The notes: generated by a model not told the origin, from the letters alone. A stretch of DNA of 16,984 nt from Candidatus Micrarchaeota archaeon (GCA_018304385.1 JAGVWJ010000038.1:1-16984); one strand, 5' to 3'; counted from the stretch's first letter, positions 5,362 through 11,769 are shown. Translations and numbers: made by a program.

Positions 5362-6741
5362 TTACCCACACTTTAATTCATCATCTCTTTTTTCTTTAGC
5401 TAGCTTTTTCGCATATGGTGTAATATAATCTTCGTTCAAGCAGCCTGTGCAAACAGGCAGGCCAATTACTTTCTTCAAACCTTCAATGCTTAAGTATCCG
5501 AGCGTCTCAACACCTAAATACCTTCTAATCTCCTCAACACCCTTATTGCTTGCAATTAATTCTTTATATGTTGCCATATCCACTCCATAGAAACATGGCG
5601 CTTTGATTGGCGGGCACGTAATGCGTAAATGCACCTCTTTCGCACCCGCATTACGTACGAGCTTTACAATTTCACGCAATGTTGTGCCGCGCACAATACT
5701 ATCATCAATAAGTACCACGCGTTTATTAGCAATAATACTTTTTACTGGATTTAATTTTAATCTTACTGCTTCTGCACGTTTATCTGGTGATGGCATGATA
5801 AATGTTCTGCCAACATACCTATTTTTTATTAAACCCTCTTCCATTTGGATGCTGCTAATGCGTGAAAATGCATCCGCAGCAGATCGTGCAGTGTCAGGTA
5901 TTGGAACAACTACATCCGCGCTCACAGGATGTTCTTTAGCAAGTTGCTCGCCCAAGCGCTTTCGTACTTCCAACACACTAAGTTTATTTATTATTGAATC
6001 TGGCCTTGCAAAATAAACATACTCAAACATACAATGCCTGCGCACTCCTGAAGAAACACTTTTCTTTACAATCTTATTATTTTTTATTGTAGCGTACTCG
6101 CCAGCCTCAACATCCCCTACATACTCAATATTATTTATGTCAAGCGCGCAACTCTCGCTTGCAAAACAAATAAAATCCTCACTCTCTCCATAAACCAATT
6201 GTCTGATTGCATGCGGATCGCGAAACGCAACAAGCTCATTATTGATAATTGCCACATTAGAATAAGCGCCATCAACCTTTTCCATAACATATTTTAGTGC
6301 AGCTTCTAATCCTATCTCCATCTTCTTTTTCAATAATATTGCGATGATTTCAGAATCCGCAGTACCCTTAAGCTTAATCCCATCATCCTCTAATTCTTTT
6401 TTTATTACATTATAATTGGATACATGGCCGTTATGCGCAATTGCGATATCTTCATACACAAATGGTTGGACTTCTGCCATAGTTATAAGCCCGCTAGTAG
6501 GATAGCGCGTGTGGCCTATACCAAAACTTCCTTTTATCTCAAGATCATCTTGTTTAAATGCTTCGCTAACCAAACCAAGATTTTTTTTAAGCTCGATTTT
6601 TTTATTAAAAACAGCAATACCAGCAGCGTCTTGTCCGCGATGTTGCAATGCAATTAGCGCGTTATATATTAATGGTGCTACATCCTTGCCTTTCTTAGAA
6701 TAAATAGCAACTATCCCGCATTCCTCGCGTTTTTCTTCCAT
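5362..6741 (-). CDS. purF: Amidophosphoribosyltransferase
   Basis: Propeptide + EECG (catalytic Cys), LQHRGQD, GHTRY, AHNG, CMFEYVYFARPDS, VLIDDSIVRGTT (PRPP site), CFYGVD, CTGC (Fe-S cysteines). Confidence 0.97.
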   Translation of the reverse strand: MEEKREECGIVAIYSKKGKDVAPLIYNALIALQHRGQDAAGIAVFNKKIELKKNLGLVSEAFKQDDLEIKGSFGIGHTRYPTSGLITMAEVQPFVYEDIAIAHNGHVSNYNVIKKELEDDGIKLKGTADSEIIAILLKKKMEIGLEAALKYVMEKVDGAYSNVAIINNELVAFRDPHAIRQLVYGESEDFICFASESCALDINNIEYVGDVEAGEYATIKNNKIVKKSVSSGVRRHCMFEYVYFARPDSIINKLSVLEVRKRLGEQLAKEHPVSADVVVPIPDTARSAADAFSRISSIQMEEGLIKNRYVGRTFIMPSPDKRAEAVRLKLNPVKSIIANKRVVLIDDSIVRGTTLREIVKLVRNAGAKEVHLRITCPPIKAPCFYGVDMATYKELIASNKGVEEIRRYLGVETLGYLSIEGLKKVIGLPVCTGCLNEDYITPYAKKLAKEKRDDELKCG

Positions 6742-6875
6742 AAGTACTATTGATGATTATTATTTAAAAACAATGAGCAGAATCCCCATAAGGGGTTGTA
6801 GGTGTTACGCCCCTTTAAATACCTTCATTGTATATTAGTTATTATAAACGACCAGTTGTAGGAGAGGTAGATGCA

Positions 6876-7376
6876 ATGTTACGAAATGCTCAGCCCAGGT
6901 TATCTCAGTGGGAATTAAAAACAATAGAAATGAGGGGTCAAACAAAGACAATAAAAAGAATTTTAATTGTTGATGACTCACCAATTTTTGCAAGAATGTT
7001 CAGAACAGTATTAGTAGCAGCAGGCTTTGATGTCACTGTTGAAACAGATTCTAGGCGAGCGCTAGCTGCAGTAATTGCGGCGCGTGAATCAGACCAACCT
7101 TTCAATCTCATAATCTCTGATAAATGTATGCCACACATTGATGGGCCAACATTACTTGCAGGCCTGCGCAGAGATTTTCGTGACATGAAAACAATTATTA
7201 CTTCCACTAGTGTAAAATCTGGTGACGCTACTCCATTTGCAGATCTTGCAGTAGGTAAATCAATGGATATTGGAACGATGTTTATTGATATTTTGTGTGC
7301 AGTAGAATTTCTAAATAATATTGCAGAGATACAAAAAAAGAAACCTCTGATAGAACCAATTCAACCAAGTGCATAA
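6876..7376 (+). CDS. Stand-alone response-regulator receiver (REC) protein
   Basis: ILIVDDS (acid pocket), LIISDKCMP (phospho-Asp), IITS, and the conserved Lys in AVGKS. ATG 6876 follows SD-like GGAGAGG (6861-6867); the ORF-track start is TTG 6828. Confidence 0.85.
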   Translation: MLRNAQPRLSQWELKTIEMRGQTKTIKRILIVDDSPIFARMFRTVLVAAGFDVTVETDSRRALAAVIAARESDQPFNLIISDKCMPHIDGPTLLAGLRRDFRDMKTIITSTSVKSGDATPFADLAVGKSMDIGTMFIDILCAVEFLNNIAEIQKKKPLIEPIQPSA

Positions 7377-7408
7377 TTTACATCAATTAGGAAAGTAGCG
7401 TAATCTTC

Positions 7409-8971
7409 TTATATCGTTATTTGGAGTTTGCCTTGCGTATTCAAATATTCAACACACACATTAATTGCCTTTCCAATTTGTGCACTAGTCATTTCATTAT
7501 TTGGTAAGTAAAACACATCATGGCCTACTCTTACTGGATCAGTTGCATCACTAAAGAATATCGCATTTCTTTCTTTATGCAATCTTACACTAAATCCCGC
7601 GCACGTTAGTAAATCATATAGTTCTGCTTTATTTGTTGGTACGCCACTTCTCAATGTTTTTAGTGCATTTGAAGTATCAATATTACTAACTACCTTACCA
7701 TTTGGTTTTCCATTAGTTAATAAAACATCATCCCAAGTAGCTTCGCTGAGTTGTTTCAATATCCAACCATTACTTTTTAGAAAATCTCTTATTCTCTCAT
7801 GGTTTTCAAGAATTTCTGCTAACGCCTTATTCGTATGACTAAATCTCTCTTTTATCAAACATAATATTCGTTCTACAAACTCTTGCCTAACTGTTTTTGA
7901 AAGCGCAGCTTGTATTTCTGTAAAAACAACAGCTGCTCTTTCAGTTCTTTCTTGCCCTAAACGTGCTCGTTCTTCCTCTTTTCTAGCCCTTTCTTCAGGT
8001 GTAGGTTCTATTGGCGGCGTTATTACTCTTTCTCTTGGCTTAACTGATGCAGTACCATTTGTTGGCATTGATGCAGCATGTACTGGCGCAGTTTTAATCC
8101 TAGGCCTCTCTTTTCTTTCCATATCCTTTCGTTTTCTTCTTTCCCTACGTATCTCTGATACAATTGGTTGACCAAAGATTAACCCAGCAAGAATTAATCC
8201 ACCCCAAAAACCATTTCCTAATCCAGCGTAAGCTATGCTGCCAGGCTCATAAAACTGCCCAGTTAGTGCTTCTTGGTGTGCAGCAGCAACCATCCTCTCG
8301 CTTTCAATCCATTCAATATTTTCTATTAAGTTTCGTACAAGTTCTTCTAATTTATCATCAAAAATTTTATCTCCATCCAACACTGCACCCATACTAGAGA
8401 TTCTTTTATTGTATGCATCTACATCATTTAACAATTTTGTAATTGCAGCACATGGATCACAATCTTCAACCTCGCTGCCCCTTGATTCAGGAAGTGGTTC
8501 TGCTATTTTTTTCTCATATTCAGCATCCAATCTTTCAGATGCCTGATTCCTAGTTTCTCTCAATAATTGTAACCATACTAAAATCCTCACATTCTTTTCT
8601 AACTCACTGTTTCTAATCAATTCATATTGCGTCGAGCTTAAGTTTTCAGATGAAAATCTTAACCCACTTTCTTGAAAAATTTGATAAAGCCTAAAAACAA
8701 GCGCATGCGCAGCATTTTTATAAGTCTCTGTAGTTATTGGCCCTTCTTTAACAAGCGTTAACGGGTCTTGATTGGCATGCTCTTTTTGATGTCCATCAAT
8801 TCTTTCTATTTGACCTTCAATTCTTCTAAAATGATCTCTAATATCCCTTTGCGTAATAAGCAACAAACCAAGCCCGCCAACTGCAGTCGATAGAAGTATT
8901 GTTGCACCTGCCCTTTTCATATTTCTTTTAGCATTATCAGTAACTCCTAATGATTTGAAGCCAAGTTCCAT
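7409..8971 (-). CDS. Two-TM receptor-like membrane protein of unknown function
   Basis: 520-aa ORF. Hydrophobic segments at aa 21-39 and ~246-271 are followed by RRERRKRK; they enclose a ~205-aa helical loop, followed by a ~250-aa tail. Has its own TATA box. Confidence 0.7.
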   Translation of the reverse strand: MELGFKSLGVTDNAKRNMKRAGATILLSTAVGGLGLLLITQRDIRDHFRRIEGQIERIDGHQKEHANQDPLTLVKEGPITTETYKNAAHALVFRLYQIFQESGLRFSSENLSSTQYELIRNSELEKNVRILVWLQLLRETRNQASERLDAEYEKKIAEPLPESRGSEVEDCDPCAAITKLLNDVDAYNKRISSMGAVLDGDKIFDDKLEELVRNLIENIEWIESERMVAAAHQEALTGQFYEPGSIAYAGLGNGFWGGLILAGLIFGQPIVSEIRRERRKRKDMERKERPRIKTAPVHAASMPTNGTASVKPRERVITPPIEPTPEERARKEEERARLGQERTERAAVVFTEIQAALSKTVRQEFVERILCLIKERFSHTNKALAEILENHERIRDFLKSNGWILKQLSEATWDDVLLTNGKPNGKVVSNIDTSNALKTLRSGVPTNKAELYDLLTCAGFSVRLHKERNAIFFSDATDPVRVGHDVFYLPNNEMTSAQIGKAINVCVEYLNTQGKLQITI

Positions 8972-8993
8972 ATATCTATATTAATACCCACCC

Positions 8994-9001
8994 TTTATAA
9001 A
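8994..9001. promoter_or_regulatory. Palindromic bidirectional TATA box
   Basis: TTTATAAA lies exactly 22 nt from ATG 8971 (- strand) and exactly 22 nt from ATG 9024 (+ strand). Confidence 0.65.
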
Positions 9002-9023
9002 TATTTGTAACATAAATACCTTT

Positions 9024-10022
9024 ATGAAGTTTGCAGATAACGTACCATATTATGTTAGGGCCAGAGTGCAAAGAGAAATAGCTAATGTAAGAAGAACATT
9101 TAGCAAAGACATTACTCAGCTTCATCAAAAGGCAAGATTTGAATTTAGACTCTCAGGTAACACAACACCTTTGGTTGAGGATCCATTTACACCTATGAAT
9201 ATACTTGCTAGAAAATCCACACCAAGTGAAGAGAATCGAAGAAGAACAACAGACGAAAAAATGCAGCTAGCACCCTATGCTGCCAGATGCATAAGATCGT
9301 TTCAAGAAGTTTTTAGAGATTATCCAGAAGTAGTAACCCAACTAGAACAAAATGAAGGGGATTTTGATTTTGTATTATGCAGAGCAACCCCTCTTGATGA
9401 TTCTGGGAGATTAACTGCTTTACCAAGGATTTTAGAAGTGCACTTATCTGTTGGAGATACATCGCGCAGATTTACTGAAGAGACGCATCCTGAAATTATG
9501 AGGTTACTTGCAGTAATGCAGGTATTTACCCTCCCCGCTACGGGCAACCATTTTGTTTCCAATGTTGTAGAAGATTTCACCAATATGGATTACACTATCA
9601 GAATAGAAGGCAACCCAAATCAAACAGATGTTTTAACAAGACACATTTCAGATAAACTATCCTCTAAATTATTTTCTATAAGAAAAATACTTGTTGTTAG
9701 CGATCTTCAATTAGCAGGCAGGCTAGGTGAACTTGGTTTTGAAGTTGTAGCAGCAGATAATAGTTATGTTGCAGAACGCTTACGCGCTGGCCAATTTGAT
9801 TTACTGATAACCGACGTGCTAACACAATCAGATGGTCCACAAGGCTTTGAACTTATTCGTTTAGCAAAGGGTATACAACCAACACTAAAAACAATATTAC
9901 TTTCTCTAGCTGCAAATACTCGTCTTTCTTATTCAACAGATGCTGTAAATGGCTATGTTGAAAAGAAATCATCTTTCTTCAGTGAGCTTTTAGGAATAAT
10001 AGATTTATTGGCATGTGATTAA
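9024..10022 (+). CDS. Unknown N-terminal domain fused to a C-terminal REC domain
   Basis: C-terminal ~115 aa: KILVVSD, GFEVVAA, FDLLITD (phospho-Asp), GFELIR, ILLS, GYVEKK. The N-terminal ~218 aa are not recognised. Confidence 0.78.
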   Translation: MKFADNVPYYVRARVQREIANVRRTFSKDITQLHQKARFEFRLSGNTTPLVEDPFTPMNILARKSTPSEENRRRTTDEKMQLAPYAARCIRSFQEVFRDYPEVVTQLEQNEGDFDFVLCRATPLDDSGRLTALPRILEVHLSVGDTSRRFTEETHPEIMRLLAVMQVFTLPATGNHFVSNVVEDFTNMDYTIRIEGNPNQTDVLTRHISDKLSSKLFSIRKILVVSDLQLAGRLGELGFEVVAADNSYVAERLRAGQFDLLITDVLTQSDGPQGFELIRLAKGIQPTLKTILLSLAANTRLSYSTDAVNGYVEKKSSFFSELLGIIDLLACD

Positions 10023-10023
10023 T

Positions 10024-10533
10024 ATGTTTCGAAGCGATGGTAGAAATTCATCTTATGGCCCGTTGGCAGATGCGATAAGATATCGCGTCCAGCATGGCGC
10101 GTATCGCATAAAACGCGTTTTGATTGTTGATGATTCAAAGGATGTTGCGCATGGGCTTAAGGAATTTTTAACAAATCATCTTGGCTTGAATGTAGGTGTA
10201 GTGATTAGCTCAGGTCGGGCATACCATTACCTCCGAAGGGCACTGCGCGAAGGCAAGCCATTCCAACTTATTATTTCTGATGTAGAACTTGGAACAAGAA
10301 GCGATGATGGTTTTCTCATTCTTACAAAGGCAAGGCAGCTCGATCCGCGTATCAGAACTATTCTTACGTCCTCGATGGCATCTACAACAATTCACCCCTG
10401 CGAGCACGCTGATTTCACATTACACAAAGGCAAAAAAGACATGCTGACGGAATTGCTATTGCTAATAGATCGCTTAGAAGCGAGATTTCATATGAAAGAA
10501 ATGCAGCCATTAGTAGAACCACCTAGAGGCTAA
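10024..10533 (+). CDS. Stand-alone response-regulator receiver (REC) protein
   Basis: VLIVDDS, PFQLIISD, DGF, ILTS, TLHK. ATG is 1 nt after the upstream TAA; the ORF-track start is GTG 10015. Confidence 0.85.
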   Translation: MFRSDGRNSSYGPLADAIRYRVQHGAYRIKRVLIVDDSKDVAHGLKEFLTNHLGLNVGVVISSGRAYHYLRRALREGKPFQLIISDVELGTRSDDGFLILTKARQLDPRIRTILTSSMASTTIHPCEHADFTLHKGKKDMLTELLLLIDRLEARFHMKEMQPLVEPPRG

Positions 10534-10683: not shown

Positions 10684-11769
10684 ATGAGACCTGTAGCAGT
10701 AATTGGAGTTGGGATGACAAAATTCGGCGAGCATTGGAACGAAGGATTCCGCGATTTAGTTATAAAAGCAGGTCTACGCGCGATAGAGGATGCAAATATC
10801 CATGGTGAAGAGATTCAAGCAGGTTATGTTGGAACAATGGCCTCTGGCAGGTTAGTTGGCCAAGAGCACATTGGCGCATTGCTTGCAGATCATATGGGCC
10901 TCACCCCAATTCCTATAACGCGTGTTGAAGGCGCTTGTGCAAGCGGTGGATTAGCATTTCGTCAAGGTTACATGGCAGTTGCAAGCGGTATGCATGATAT
11001 TGTAGTTGTTGGCGGCGTAGAAAAAATGACTGATCTAGATGTTGCTGAAGTTAGCGATATTCTTGGAGGCGCAGGAGATCAGGAGTGGGAATTATTTTTA
11101 GGTGCAACATTTCCTGGGTTATATGCAATGATGGCCCGCAGGCACATGTACGAGTATAAAACAACTGCTGAAATGCTTGCAAGCGTTGCTGTTAAGAATC
11201 ATAAAAATGGTGCAAAAAATAAATATGCGCAATATCAAAATGAAATAACAATTGATCAGGTTTTGAAATCAAAAATGATCGCAGATCCATTAAAAGTATT
11301 TGATTGTTCTCCGATTACAGATGGAGCTGCTGCGGTTGTGCTTGCACCATTAGATATTGCGAAAAAATATTGTGAACAGCCTATAGAAATAATTGCATCT
11401 GCGCAAGCAAGCGATCATATTGCATTACATTCTCGTGCTAGTTTAAGCGAGTTATATGCAACAAAGGTAGCTGCTAAGCATGCATTTGAACAAGCAAAAC
11501 TAACAACAAAAGATATTGATGTTGCTGAAGTTCATGATTGCTTTACTATTGCTGAGATAATGGCTATAGAAGATTTAGGATTTTATAAAAAAGGAGAAGG
11601 TGGAAAAGCAACATTAGATGGAAAAACAGCGCTCGACAGTGAAATAGCAGTTAATACCTCTGGTGGATTAAAGGCATGCGGTCATCCTGTTGGCGCAACA
11701 GGCGTTAAGCAAATATGCGAAATAACAAAGCATCCCGTTAACATGGAGAAGAATTCCAGAAAGATATAG
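10684..11769 (+). CDS. Acetyl-CoA acetyltransferase (archaeal/SCP2-type thiolase), C-terminally truncated; possible pseudogene
   Basis: VAVIGVGMTKFG, EGACASG (catalytic Cys), GVEKM, CSPITDGAAA, EVHDCF, NTSGGL, GHPVGATG. Similarity stops after KQICEITK; the usual final ~35-40 aa (Q-L-R-G...HNVGG-type strand) are absent. Confidence 0.9.
   Translation: MRPVAVIGVGMTKFGEHWNEGFRDLVIKAGLRAIEDANIHGEEIQAGYVGTMASGRLVGQEHIGALLADHMGLTPIPITRVEGACASGGLAFRQGYMAVASGMHDIVVVGGVEKMTDLDVAEVSDILGGAGDQEWELFLGATFPGLYAMMARRHMYEYKTTAEMLASVAVKNHKNGAKNKYAQYQNEITIDQVLKSKMIADPLKVFDCSPITDGAAAVVLAPLDIAKKYCEQPIEIIASAQASDHIALHSRASLSELYATKVAAKHAFEQAKLTTKDIDVAEVHDCFTIAEIMAIEDLGFYKKGEGGKATLDGKTALDSEIAVNTSGGLKACGHPVGATGVKQICEITKHPVNMEKNSRKI

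What the first reader, a model, noticed from the sequence alone, without database searches (positions are those of the whole stretch)
6876..10533. Kinase-less signalling cluster: three REC proteins around a 2-TM receptor-like protein
Seen: REC (6876-7376), 2-TM protein (7409-8971), unknown domain + REC (9024-10022) and REC (10024-10533). All three keep the phospho-acceptor Asp, the Ser/Thr and the Lys; the fused one has only one acidic residue in the pocket (VVSD). There is no HisKA/HATPase, CheA, HPt or DNA-binding output in the cluster. The receptor and the two-REC operon share one bidirectional TATA box. Established: archaeal receivers are often stand-alone and two-component systems are patchily distributed in archaea. 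Inference: an undescribed module in which a non-kinase membrane sensor and receivers communicate by protein contact or are phosphorylated in trans. Weak nuclease-like hints in both non-REC domains raise a regulated toxin/defence role.
Basis: partly seen in the sequence, partly recalled or inferred. Interest (0 to 1): 0.7.

Follow-up and report, generated by a model that had tools for sequence, protein, structure and literature searches.

The report
Orphan receiver genes beside unrelated membrane orphan
A tiny groundwater archaeon (Micrarchaeota) carries three fast-evolving "receiver" signalling proteins and no sensor kinase in its 89%-complete genome. The four flagged genes are not a conserved unit, because the membrane protein occurs only in this species and sister species keep kinases elsewhere, so this is an ordinary if interesting case of orphaned signalling genes.

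Summary
REC1 (6876-7376), a probable 2-TM protein (7409-8971, minus strand), an unknown-domain+REC protein "XREC" (9024-10022) and REC3 (10024-10533) are real genes. They hold the only three receiver domains found in the assembled genome, which has no HisKA or Hpt match and only GyrB and TopoVI-B as HATPase_c matches.

- The membrane protein had no homologue in the protein collection searched or in 60 related genomes.
- In sister species G002 the same purF/thiolase gap holds only XREC+REC3. In another genus it holds two plain receivers, and in G022 nothing.
- Sister genomes G001 and G002 each encode two divergent soluble histidine kinases elsewhere. In this genome one of those is cut to a 104-aa stump and another is missing from its syntenic site.

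REC1 and REC3 belong to a family of about ten sequences that keeps the full phospho-site and a conserved C-terminal P-x-x-E tail. XREC is a pseudo-receiver fused to a new 215-aa domain with no fold match. Nuclease, HicA and defence hints found no support.

Best reading: leftovers of a diverged two-component network, now signalling by protein contacts. An earlier scan note (e1-4360027) described similar orphan receivers in another Micrarchaeota genome.

The parts
6876..7376 (+). REC1: stand-alone receiver (166 aa) with a ~25-aa N-terminal extension and a C-terminal tail KKKPLIEPIQPSA. It is a 33%-identical paralogue of REC3.
   Evidence: Pfam PF00072 scores 47.9 bits. The residues DD, D, T/S and K and the P-x-x-E tail are aligned. 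No gene stands at this position in G002.
7409..8971 (-). TM2: 520-aa species-specific orphan membrane protein. Predicted layout: N-in; TM1 (res 21-41, 8849-8911); helical ectodomain (res 42-250); Gly-rich TM2 (res 251-272, 8156-8221); basic/Pro-rich linker; helical region; and a ~120-aa alpha/beta tail (cytoplasmic part 7412-8155).
   Evidence: No Pfam, NCBIfam, PADLOC or PDB hit; one weak PHROG row, E 0.097. Only self in the word-indexed search of 5.8 billion proteins, and nothing for the tail among shorter proteins. None in 60 relatives. Six strain variants at 94-99% identity. Hydropathy. GC skew and a 1.5-kb open frame in a 37% GC genome argue that the gene is real.
8438..8608 (-). Variable patch of the TM2 ectodomain (residues 122-178), surrounding an invariant C171-D-P-C174 motif.
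   Evidence: 17 of the 22 positions that vary among the strain variants fall in this 57-residue stretch. The changes are linked in one haplotype, so they may come from a single recombination tract.
8994..9001 (.). Palindromic TATA-like box TTTATAAA, centred 26.5 nt from both divergent start codons (TM2 at 8971, XREC at 9024). It implies two leaderless transcripts from one promoter core.
   Evidence: Read directly from the sequence. There is no transcript evidence, because no RNA run holds the locus.
9024..9668 (+). XREC N-terminal domain (~215 aa). This is the conserved, family-defining part, with 17 invariant residues: M1, P8, R17, E18, E40, G45, P49, V51, P54, R74, V117, G128, P134, E183-D184 ('VEDF'), Q200 and L204. 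No known fold or family matches it.
   Evidence: Seven-member family alignment. AlphaFold model of the domain alone has pLDDT 65 (residues 60-165 at 78-94; 167-197 below 50). Best PDB match is VIA Z 2.9 and Foldseek E 0.5. No Pfam hit and no Atlas hit.
9669..10022 (+). XREC C-terminal pseudo-receiver. It has the (beta-alpha)5 fold, with S226-D227 in place of the acidic pair, plus D264, S294 and K314. The protein ends right after helix 5 (LLGIIDLLACD) and has no tail.
   Evidence: Pfam scores only 18 bits. Fold match Z 12-13.7. In more distant family members the phospho-Asp is lost (P0004, P0005), Lys becomes Arg or is lost in the four most distant members and P0003, and Pfam no longer detects a receiver in the two tested (P0004, P0006).
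10024..10533 (+). REC3: stand-alone receiver (169 aa) that starts 1 nt after the XREC stop, so the two form an operon. It has the full DD-D-T/S-K site and the tail EMQPLVEPPRG.
   Evidence: Pfam scores 34.3 bits. Orthologues at 83%, 60%, 60%, 54% and 51% identity keep the site and the tail. The XREC+REC3 pair recurs in G002. It probably also recurs on one 4,580-bp ENA contig: P0002 and P0021 both list a 4,580-bp contig.

Best explanation
The locus is not a four-gene machine. It is a lineage-specific, fast-evolving set of orphaned receiver proteins that sits in a gap between purF and the thiolase gene, a gap that holds different lineage-specific genes in different relatives.

The conserved core is the operon XREC-REC3. 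XREC is a new ~215-aa domain fused to a pseudo-receiver. REC3 is a stand-alone receiver with an intact phospho-site and a conserved C-terminal P-x-x-E(P) tail. REC1 is an old paralogue of REC3. The 2-TM protein is a species-specific orphan gene that happens to share the promoter region.

In sister species the likely phosphodonors are divergent, soluble histidine kinases encoded elsewhere. In this genome those kinase genes have been truncated or lost.

Inferred steps:
- REC1 and REC3 now act as protein-protein interaction switches, docking through their tail.
- They are either unphosphorylated or charged by a small-molecule donor such as carbamoyl phosphate, or by a kinase not yet assembled.
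- XREC acts through its N-domain without needing phosphorylation.

Shown: gene content, family membership, active-site residues, synteny, and kinase presence or absence.

Inferred: the signalling mechanism and the partners.
For: 1. The receivers are real, and they are the only ones in the genome.
2. No kinase turns up in the assembled genome. PF02518 matches only GyrB and TopoVI-B. HisKA and Hpt match nothing. A profile built from the genus's own kinases, run at full sensitivity over the six-frame translation, gives a best E of 0.028.
3. Same-genus genomes G001 and G002 each have two proteins with full histidine-kinase-type HATPase_c domains (62-99 bits; N, G1, F and G2 boxes invariant).
4. 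The G002 kinase HK415 has a 65%-identical orthologue in this genome, at G000 C20:24851-25165, next to the same lipoprotein gene. It stops after 104 aa, with only 36 bp before the next gene. The second G002 kinase is absent beside the syntenic S19e gene.
5. Synteny of the purF/thiolase gap: G002 has purF | XREC, REC3, thiolase with no REC1 or TM2. G004 has two plain receivers in the same gap. G026 has a receiver directly upstream of thiolase. G001 has one XREC beside purF and another beside thiolase. G022 has purF and thiolase directly adjacent. The thiolase loci of the other 26 relatives in the 30-locus scan (+/-1.5 kb) hold no receiver.
6. Evolution is fast. Between G000 and G002, purF is 82% and thiolase 91% identical, but REC3 is 54% and XREC 35%. 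GC3 of three of the four genes is 0.22 (REC3 0.38) against a genome mean of 0.27, which argues against recent foreign origin for those three.
7. The stand-alone receiver family keeps D, S/T and K invariant, and also P165 and E168 of the tail, at 23-51% identity to REC3. A database search with that alignment finds only ~7 members above 170 bits, then drops to 92 bits.
8. G004 and G026 (84% and 88% complete) also carry tail-bearing receivers, and their HATPase_c matches are not histidine-kinase-like by match pattern (partial coverage; frames of 634, 530 and 120 aa), though I did not open them. Neither has a HisKA match.
9. CPSase is present, so carbamoyl phosphate is made. Acetate kinase was not found.
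10. Stand-alone receivers and receivers fused to narrow lineage-specific domains are the archaeal norm (PMC5847659).
Against: - The genome is only 89% complete, so a kinase could lie in the unassembled part.
- Strict retention of the full catalytic quintet in REC1 and REC3 argues that phosphorylation is still selected, which fits poorly with complete kinase loss.
- The exact symmetry of the shared TATA box, and the stable four-gene arrangement in several metagenomes (one 3.8-kb contig spans 6602-10424 at ~98.7% identity), allow co-regulation of TM2 with XREC-REC3.
- No partner of the tail or of the XREC N-domain has been identified.
- The 104-aa 'stump' could be a functional stand-alone domain rather than a decayed kinase.
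Confidence: 0.55

Rival explanations
1. This is an ordinary two-component system whose kinase is simply not assembled. The cognate histidine kinase lies in the missing ~10% of the genome or on an unbinned contig, and the receivers are phosphorylated in trans as usual.
For: Completeness is 89.4%. Sister genomes G001 and G002 encode two divergent kinases each, away from their receiver genes. REC1 and REC3 keep all five catalytic residues.
Against: Both kinase loci known from G002 are assembled in this genome and lack a kinase: one holds a 104-aa stump, the other no kinase gene. A genus-specific kinase profile finds nothing in the six-frame translation. Two further genomes with this receiver family (G004, G026) show no HisKA match and no HATPase_c match with a histidine-kinase-like pattern.
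Confidence: 0.2
2. The 2-TM protein is a non-kinase sensor that passes a signal to REC1, XREC and REC3 by direct contact, and the four genes work as one unit.
For: TM2 has a sensor-like N-in / ectodomain / C-in topology. One palindromic TATA box lies exactly midway between the TM2 and XREC start codons. The four-gene order is stable in the population across several studies. The TM2 cytoplasmic linker holds PPIEPTP, which resembles the receivers' P-[LI]-[IV]-E-P tails. Strain variation is concentrated in the ectodomain, as in surface receptors.
Against: TM2 has no homologue anywhere outside this species. XREC-REC3 exist without it in G002 and G001. REC1 is convergent to TM2 and has its own promoter region. 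Nothing in TM2 resembles a known signalling domain. Adjacency in a single species is weak evidence.
Confidence: 0.15
3. The receivers are functionally tied to the neighbouring metabolic genes (the thiolase/DUF35 mevalonate-pathway operon, or purF). They might, for example, tune their expression or bind the enzyme complex.
For: A receiver or XREC gene lies directly upstream of thiolase, and in the same direction, in G000, G001, G002, G004 and G026, with 53-150 bp gaps in four of the five.
Against: These five genomes belong to only two genera of one family, so the pattern can be inherited. The thiolase loci of the other 26 relatives in the 30-locus scan hold no receiver. The same region collects other unrelated orphan genes, such as small membrane ORFs between thiolase and DUF35 in G002, G005 and G022, so it looks like a permissive insertion site.
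Confidence: 0.05
4. This is a regulated toxin or anti-virus defence system, in which the non-receiver domains of TM2 and XREC are nuclease-like effectors controlled by the receivers.
For: There are only motif-level hints. XREC has invariant acidic residues (E18, E40, E183-D184). The TM2 tail has a short helix-strand stretch that hhalign lines up with 12 columns of HicA. Receiver-based defence systems do exist (Detocs, from my own knowledge).
Against: - No PADLOC model matches any of the four proteins at E<=0.01; REC1 has one row at E 0.023.
- No PHROG match beyond the receiver part.
- The HicA profile finds the genome's three true HicA genes but not TM2, even at E<=10. hhalign probability is 0.1%, and the catalytic G-S-H is absent.
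- The XREC N-domain model has no nuclease-like fold match.
- There are no mobile-element or defence-island neighbours. The flanks are purF, pheT, acetyl-CoA synthetase and thiolase.
Confidence: 0.05

Closest known systems
Archaeal stand-alone (CheY-like) receivers and receivers fused to narrow, lineage-specific domains (e.g. NitrOD1-5, HalOD1), as catalogued by Galperin et al. 2018 (PMC5847659)
   Same: REC1 and REC3 are REC-only proteins that keep DD, D, T/S and K. XREC is a receiver fused to a domain found in only a handful of genomes. As in that census, there is no DNA-binding output, there is no functionally informative gene neighbourhood, and signalling by protein-protein contact is expected.
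   Different: The XREC N-domain matches no described family or fold, and it was never found on its own. REC1 and REC3 carry a conserved C-terminal P-x-x-E(P) tail, which I did not find described in the four papers I opened or skimmed. The assembled genome has no kinase at all.
Pseudo-receiver / atypical response regulators, including aspartate-less receivers (PMC12632262; PMC4395418)
   Same: [quoted passage not shown] Its more distant homologues lose the phospho-Asp and the Lys. [quoted passage not shown]
   Different: Those papers treat bacteria. Here the pseudo-receiver is C-terminal to an unknown domain and is paired in an operon with a catalytically intact receiver.
Classical 2-TM sensor histidine kinases (EnvZ/PhoQ-type topology) and methyl-accepting chemoreceptors
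   Same: TM2 has the same predicted membrane layout: a short cytoplasmic N-terminus, TM1, a ~210-aa ectodomain, TM2, then a helical cytoplasmic region.
   Different: TM2 has no HAMP, HisKA, HATPase_c or MCPsignal match. hhalign against the genus's own kinases gives 0.1% probability. Its C-terminal ~120 aa has no DxGxG or GxGxG box.
HicA mRNA-interferase toxins (PF07927)
   Same: A 12-residue helix-to-strand stretch of the TM2 tail (ELYDLLTCAGFS) lines up with the start of HicA.
   Different: The profile search does not report TM2 at E<=10, yet it finds three true HicA genes at E 1e-14 to 1e-18. hhalign probability is 0.1%. The G-S-H catalytic motif is missing.

Membership tests
Response regulator receiver domain (PF00072) | Sequence profile match above the curated cut-off (30.2 bits) | tested here: met
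   REC1 scores 47.9 bits and REC3 34.3 bits. XREC scores only 18 bits, so it does not pass by sequence.
Response regulator receiver domain (PF00072) | (beta-alpha)5 fold | tested here: met
   XREC residues ~216-332 match solved receivers at VIA Z 12-13.7, rmsd 2.0-2.6 A, with 103-106 residues aligned; Foldseek E 2.5e-5.
Response regulator receiver domain (PF00072) | Catalytic quintet DD, D, T/S, K | tested here: met
   REC1 and REC3 have all five residues, and D, S/T and K are invariant across the six-member family alignment. XREC has four of five (S226 replaces the first acidic residue).
Two-component system (kinase + receiver) | A histidine kinase (HisKA/DHp + HATPase_c), CheA or Hpt donor encoded in the genome | tested here: not met
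   HATPase_c matches only GyrB and TopoVI-B. HisKA best E is 0.1 and Hpt matches nothing. The genus kinase profile gives a best E of 0.028. Caveat: the genome is 89% complete.
Pseudo-receiver (as defined in PMC12632262) | [quoted passage not shown] | tested here: met
   XREC reads VVSD in place of DD. Homologues P0004 and P0005 lack the phospho-Asp, and Lys becomes Arg in several members.
Sensor histidine kinase (for the 2-TM protein) | DHp/HisKA H-box domain and HATPase_c catalytic domain | tested here: not met
   No Pfam match, even for sub-regions at E<=10. hhalign against the four kinases of the genus gives probability 0.1%.
Methyl-accepting chemoreceptor (for the 2-TM protein) | MCPsignal cytoplasmic hairpin domain | tested here: not met
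   No Pfam family matches at E<=0.1 for the whole protein or at E<=10 for the cytoplasmic part.
HicA toxin (PF07927) | Profile match and the catalytic Gly-Ser-His motif | tested here: not met
   The six-frame search at E<=10 lists three other genes and not TM2. hhalign gives 0.1% over 12 columns, and there is no G-S-H. The fold of the tail was not modelled.
Known anti-phage defence systems (PADLOC-DB 2.0) | Any component matching a PADLOC model | tested here: not met
   TM2, XREC and REC3 have no hits. REC1 has one chance-level row at E 0.023.
Known fold for the XREC N-domain | Structural match to a solved chain | tested here: inconclusive
   The model of the domain alone has pLDDT 65. Its best matches are VIA Z 2.9 and Foldseek E 0.5. 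The most conserved stretch (167-197) is modelled below pLDDT 50, so a known fold is not excluded.

The most novel reading that the evidence does not exclude
A kinase-independent receiver network. Tail-bearing receivers with intact phospho-sites persist in at least three Micrarchaeota genomes of two genera (G000, G004, G026) in which no histidine kinase was found. That would mean they are charged by something other than a histidine kinase: either a metabolite donor such as carbamoyl phosphate, read as a metabolic signal, or a new kind of phosphodonor, possibly the XREC N-domain or the 2-TM protein. The conserved P-x-x-E(P) tail would be the docking peptide of this system.
Probability: 0.12. Interest if true: 0.7.

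Novelty: new member of a known kind. Interest (0 to 1): 0.3.

Why it matters
Little is known about how ultra-small, host-dependent DPANN archaea sense anything. This locus shows a small Micrarchaeota lineage remodelling its two-component genes quickly. The kinases diverge beyond HisKA recognition, and in one species are truncated or lost. The receivers multiply, acquire a new fused domain, and keep a conserved C-terminal peptide.

If the intact receivers really work without a kinase, they would be a compact natural test case for phosphorylation by metabolites, or for phosphorylation-independent receiver signalling, in archaea. As it stands, the finding adds two very small new families (the XREC N-domain and the tail-bearing receivers) to the known archaeal pattern of orphan receivers. 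It removes the claim of a new four-gene sensor module or defence system.

Tried and rejected
The contexts of the metagenomic homologues P0002, P0003 and P0007 could therefore not be read. I only know that P0002 and P0021 both list a 4,580-bp ENA contig.
- A metagenome-contig scan with the XREC alignment returned only a 100%-identical copy of the window. The genome-contig scan returned only G001 and G002.
- No RNA holder is listed for the locus, so transcription, operon structure and the leaderless starts are untested. Laying contigs of four DNA runs showed the same gene order and no structural variant.
- The TM2 structure was not predicted, because both prediction jobs went to XREC. The Atlas's own model of TM2 is poor (pLDDT 0.46) and its matches have TM <= 0.35. 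The Atlas gave nothing usable for the XREC N-domain either.
- Searching the TM2 tail (335-520) against shorter proteins gave no hit at E<=0.1. A PDB sequence search gave only designed coiled coils at E>=0.1.
- The idea that the TM2 cytoplasmic region (FSHTNKALAEIL) is a diverged DHp was rejected: hhalign to the genus kinases gives 0.1%, and no ATP-binding boxes are present.
- HicA-like tail: rejected.
- Recent horizontal transfer: not supported. GC3 of REC1, TM2 and XREC is 0.22 against a genome mean of 0.27 +/- 0.05; REC3 is 0.38.
- A genome-wide scan for the tail motif P[LIVMA][LIVS]E[PGT] gave 23 hits. Only REC1, REC3 and one unrelated 226-aa orphan (C49:3449-4129) have it at the very C-terminus. 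The third is probably chance.
- Synteny around the G001 kinases is not kept in this genome, so their loss here could not be judged.

Full report
**What is there.** The window is the whole 16,984-bp contig C61 of a 1.53-Mb, 65-contig genome that is 89.4% complete. Same-genus genomes are titled "Candidatus Micrarchaeota archaeon". REC1 and REC3 pass Pfam's receiver cut-off (47.9 and 34.3 bits against 30.2), while the fused protein ("XREC") reaches only 18 bits. An AlphaFold model built on a seven-sequence alignment (pLDDT 69.8) shows XREC residues ~216-332 as a clean (beta-alpha)5 receiver. It matches solved receivers at VIA Z 12-13.7 (rmsd 2.0-2.6 A, 103-106 residues) and Foldseek E 2.5e-5. REC1 and REC3 have DD, D, T/S and K; XREC has S-D ('VVSD'), D264, S294 and K314. 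Homologues support the ATG 6876 and ATG 10024 starts, and REC3 begins 1 nt after the XREC stop. The membrane protein has one strong hydrophobic segment (residues 21-41). Its second segment (251-272) is weaker and Gly-rich but is followed by a net +7 basic stretch, so a 2-TM N-in/C-in topology is likely but not proven. The 52-bp gap between TM2 and XREC holds the palindrome TTTATAAA at 8994-9001, exactly 26.5 nt from each start codon. That fits one TATA core driving two leaderless transcripts, though only on sequence grounds.

**Kinase census.** In this genome the only receiver matches are these three. HATPase_c matches only GyrB and TopoVI-B. HisKA's best hit is E 0.1, and Hpt finds nothing. 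This absence is not a property of the lineage. Same-genus genomes G001 and G002 each encode two soluble proteins with complete histidine-kinase-type HATPase_c domains (62-99 bits; invariant N, G1, F and G2 boxes) but no recognisable HisKA. A profile of those four kinases, run at full sensitivity on the six-frame translation of this genome, finds nothing (best E 0.028). Two of the loci can be traced. The orthologue of G002's 415-aa kinase lies at G000 C20:24851-25165, beside the same lipoprotein gene. It is 65% identical over residues 5-120 of the G002 kinase, but it ends after 104 aa, 36 bp before a convergent gene. G002's second kinase sits next to the S19e gene, and in this genome that neighbour is a different gene. 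So at least two kinase genes were truncated or lost here. A kinase in the missing ~10% of the genome remains possible.

**The receivers.** REC1 and REC3 are 33% identical paralogues. They group with the G002 orthologue of REC3 (54%), a lone G001 receiver, two tandem receivers in G004 and one in G026. Each has a ~25-35-aa N-terminal extension and a C-terminal extension ending in P-x-x-E(-P). In the six-sequence alignment the invariant columns include the phospho-Asp, the Ser and the Lys, and also P165 and E168 of the tail, at 23-51% identity to REC3. G004's first receiver has HN for DD, and G026's has Glu at the phospho-site. Searching 5.8 billion proteins with this alignment gives seven members above 170 bits and then a drop to generic receivers at 92 bits. 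The metagenomic members keep the tail: PLVEP, PKVED, PLTEP. The family is therefore tiny and confined to a few Micrarchaeota. The tail is as conserved as the active site, which suggests a docking peptide. Its partner is unknown.

**XREC.** An exhaustive phmmer search of 1.84 billion representatives finds only six full-length homologues, at 68, 46, 37, 31, 30 and 31% identity. Everything else matches the receiver part alone. Conservation sits in the N-terminal ~215 residues (17 invariant residues, including E18, E40 and E183-D184), whereas the receiver part decays. The phospho-Asp is lost in two members, Lys becomes Arg or is lost in five of the seven, and Pfam no longer sees a receiver in the two members tested, P0004 and P0006. 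By the definition in PMC12632262 it is a pseudo-receiver. The N-domain modelled alone (pLDDT 65) has no structural match (best Z 2.9, Foldseek E 0.5). It also has no Pfam, PHROG, PADLOC or Atlas match. The nuclease idea therefore has no support. The most conserved stretch is poorly modelled, so a known fold is not excluded.

**The membrane protein.**
- TM2 matches nothing in Pfam, NCBIfam, PADLOC or PDB sequences, and has only a chance-level PHROG row at E 0.097.
- It finds only itself among proteins of similar length, nothing for its tail among shorter proteins, and nothing in 60 relatives, including both same-genus genomes.
- Its 90% cluster holds six strain variants. Seventeen of their 22 variable positions fall in ectodomain residues 122-178, around an invariant C-D-P-C. 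This could be one recombination tract or diversifying selection.
- It shows no similarity to the genus's kinases (hhalign 0.1%) or to HicA. The HicA profile finds three true HicA genes but not TM2 at E<=10, and hhalign gives 0.1% over 12 columns.

**Comparative context.**
- In G002 the same gap reads purF | XREC, REC3, thiolase, with about 125-180 bp between purF and XREC, depending on the purF start, and no REC1 or TM2.
- G001 has two XREC paralogues, one beside purF and one beside thiolase.
- G004 has two plain receivers between purF and thiolase, and G026 has a receiver upstream of thiolase.
- In G022, purF and thiolase are directly adjacent and divergent. The thiolase loci of the other 26 relatives scanned (+/-1.5 kb) hold no receiver.
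- Other orphan ORFs are inserted between thiolase and DUF35 in G002, G005 and G022.

The gap is thus a permissive site where lineage-specific genes accumulate. Only XREC+REC3 behave as a unit; the four genes do not. Between G000 and G002, purF is 82% and thiolase 91% identical, against 54% for REC3 and 35% for XREC. GC3 of three of the four genes is at or below the genome mean, so they look like native fast-evolving genes, not recent imports. Within the species the four-gene order is stable: a 3.8-kb contig from another study spans 6602-10424 at ~98.7% identity.

**How it most likely works.**

*Shown:*
- an XREC-REC3 operon conserved in the genus;
- two catalytically intact, tail-bearing receivers;
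- a pseudo-receiver fused to a new domain;
- no kinase in the assembled genome, while sister species have kinases.

*Inferred:*
- These are remnants of a diverged two-component network.
- In sister species the soluble kinases probably charge the REC3-type receivers.
- In this genome the receivers are orphaned and act through protein contacts (the tail, and the XREC N-domain). They are either unphosphorylated or charged by a metabolite donor. Carbamoyl phosphate synthase is present and acetate kinase was not found. That small phosphodonors can charge receivers is from my own knowledge.
- I put this reading at 0.55.

**Comparison and verdict.** The closest known kind is the archaeal pattern described by Galperin et al. 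2018: abundant stand-alone receivers, and receivers fused to domains of very narrow distribution, presumed to signal by protein-protein interaction (PMC5847659). The other close kind is bacterial orphan and pseudo-receivers (PMC12632262, PMC4395418). The new elements here are small: an undescribed N-domain family of seven sequences, a tail-bearing receiver subfamily, and a documented kinase truncation. I rate the finding as a new member of a known kind, interest 0.3.

**Limits.**
- No RNA data exist for the locus.
- TM2 was not modelled.
- All relatives are incomplete MAGs and are not independent of each other.

Noticed in passing
G000 contig C20:24851-25165 (minus strand; outside the window): A 104-aa ORF is 65% identical to residues 5-120 of a 415-aa histidine kinase of sister genome G002 (L060:179-1426), beside the same lipoprotein gene. 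The DHp and ATPase parts are gone. This is either a truncated kinase or a domain now standing alone.
   Followed up: partly
window 10684-11769: Every relative's thiolase matches only residues 1-348 of this 361-aa ORF, so its C-terminal end is altered here. This agrees with another first-stage note about a deletion that fuses the thiolase 3' end to DUF35.
   Followed up: partly
window 7997-8017 (TM2 residues 319-325): The cytoplasmic linker of the membrane protein contains PPIEPTP, which resembles the C-terminal P-[LI]-[IV]-E-P tails of REC1 and REC3. It could be a shared short docking motif or chance.
   Followed up: no
window 8447-8461 (TM2 residues 171-174): The only two cysteines of the ectodomain form a C-D-P-C motif. 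It is invariant among strains although it sits inside the variable patch, so it may be a redox or metal site.
   Followed up: no
G000 C49:3449-4129: An unrelated helical 226-aa orphan ends in GQPMIEGLQR. It is the only other protein in the genome with the receiver-tail-like motif at its very C-terminus.
   Followed up: partly
L028:262-1086 and L028:7051-7887 (G002); G000 C16:40444-41607: Arg-rich orphan paralogues share a motif of the type EFR-DLN--QA-A-AK-EG--VPN--HDRI. Two of them flank the XREC locus in G002 and one lies elsewhere in this genome. No family is assigned.
   Followed up: no
L061, L060, L062 (G001, G002): The genus's histidine kinases have canonical ATPase boxes but no Pfam HisKA. 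Their likely H-boxes read YRHELIGE, YMHEVASL and VRHALGA, which would make this a divergent DHp family.
   Followed up: partly
L070, L071, L028 (G005, G022, G002): One or two small orphan ORFs, several with a hydrophobic stretch by eye, are inserted between thiolase and its DUF35 partner in several relatives. This suggests the operon region is a hot spot for orphan-gene insertion.
   Followed up: no
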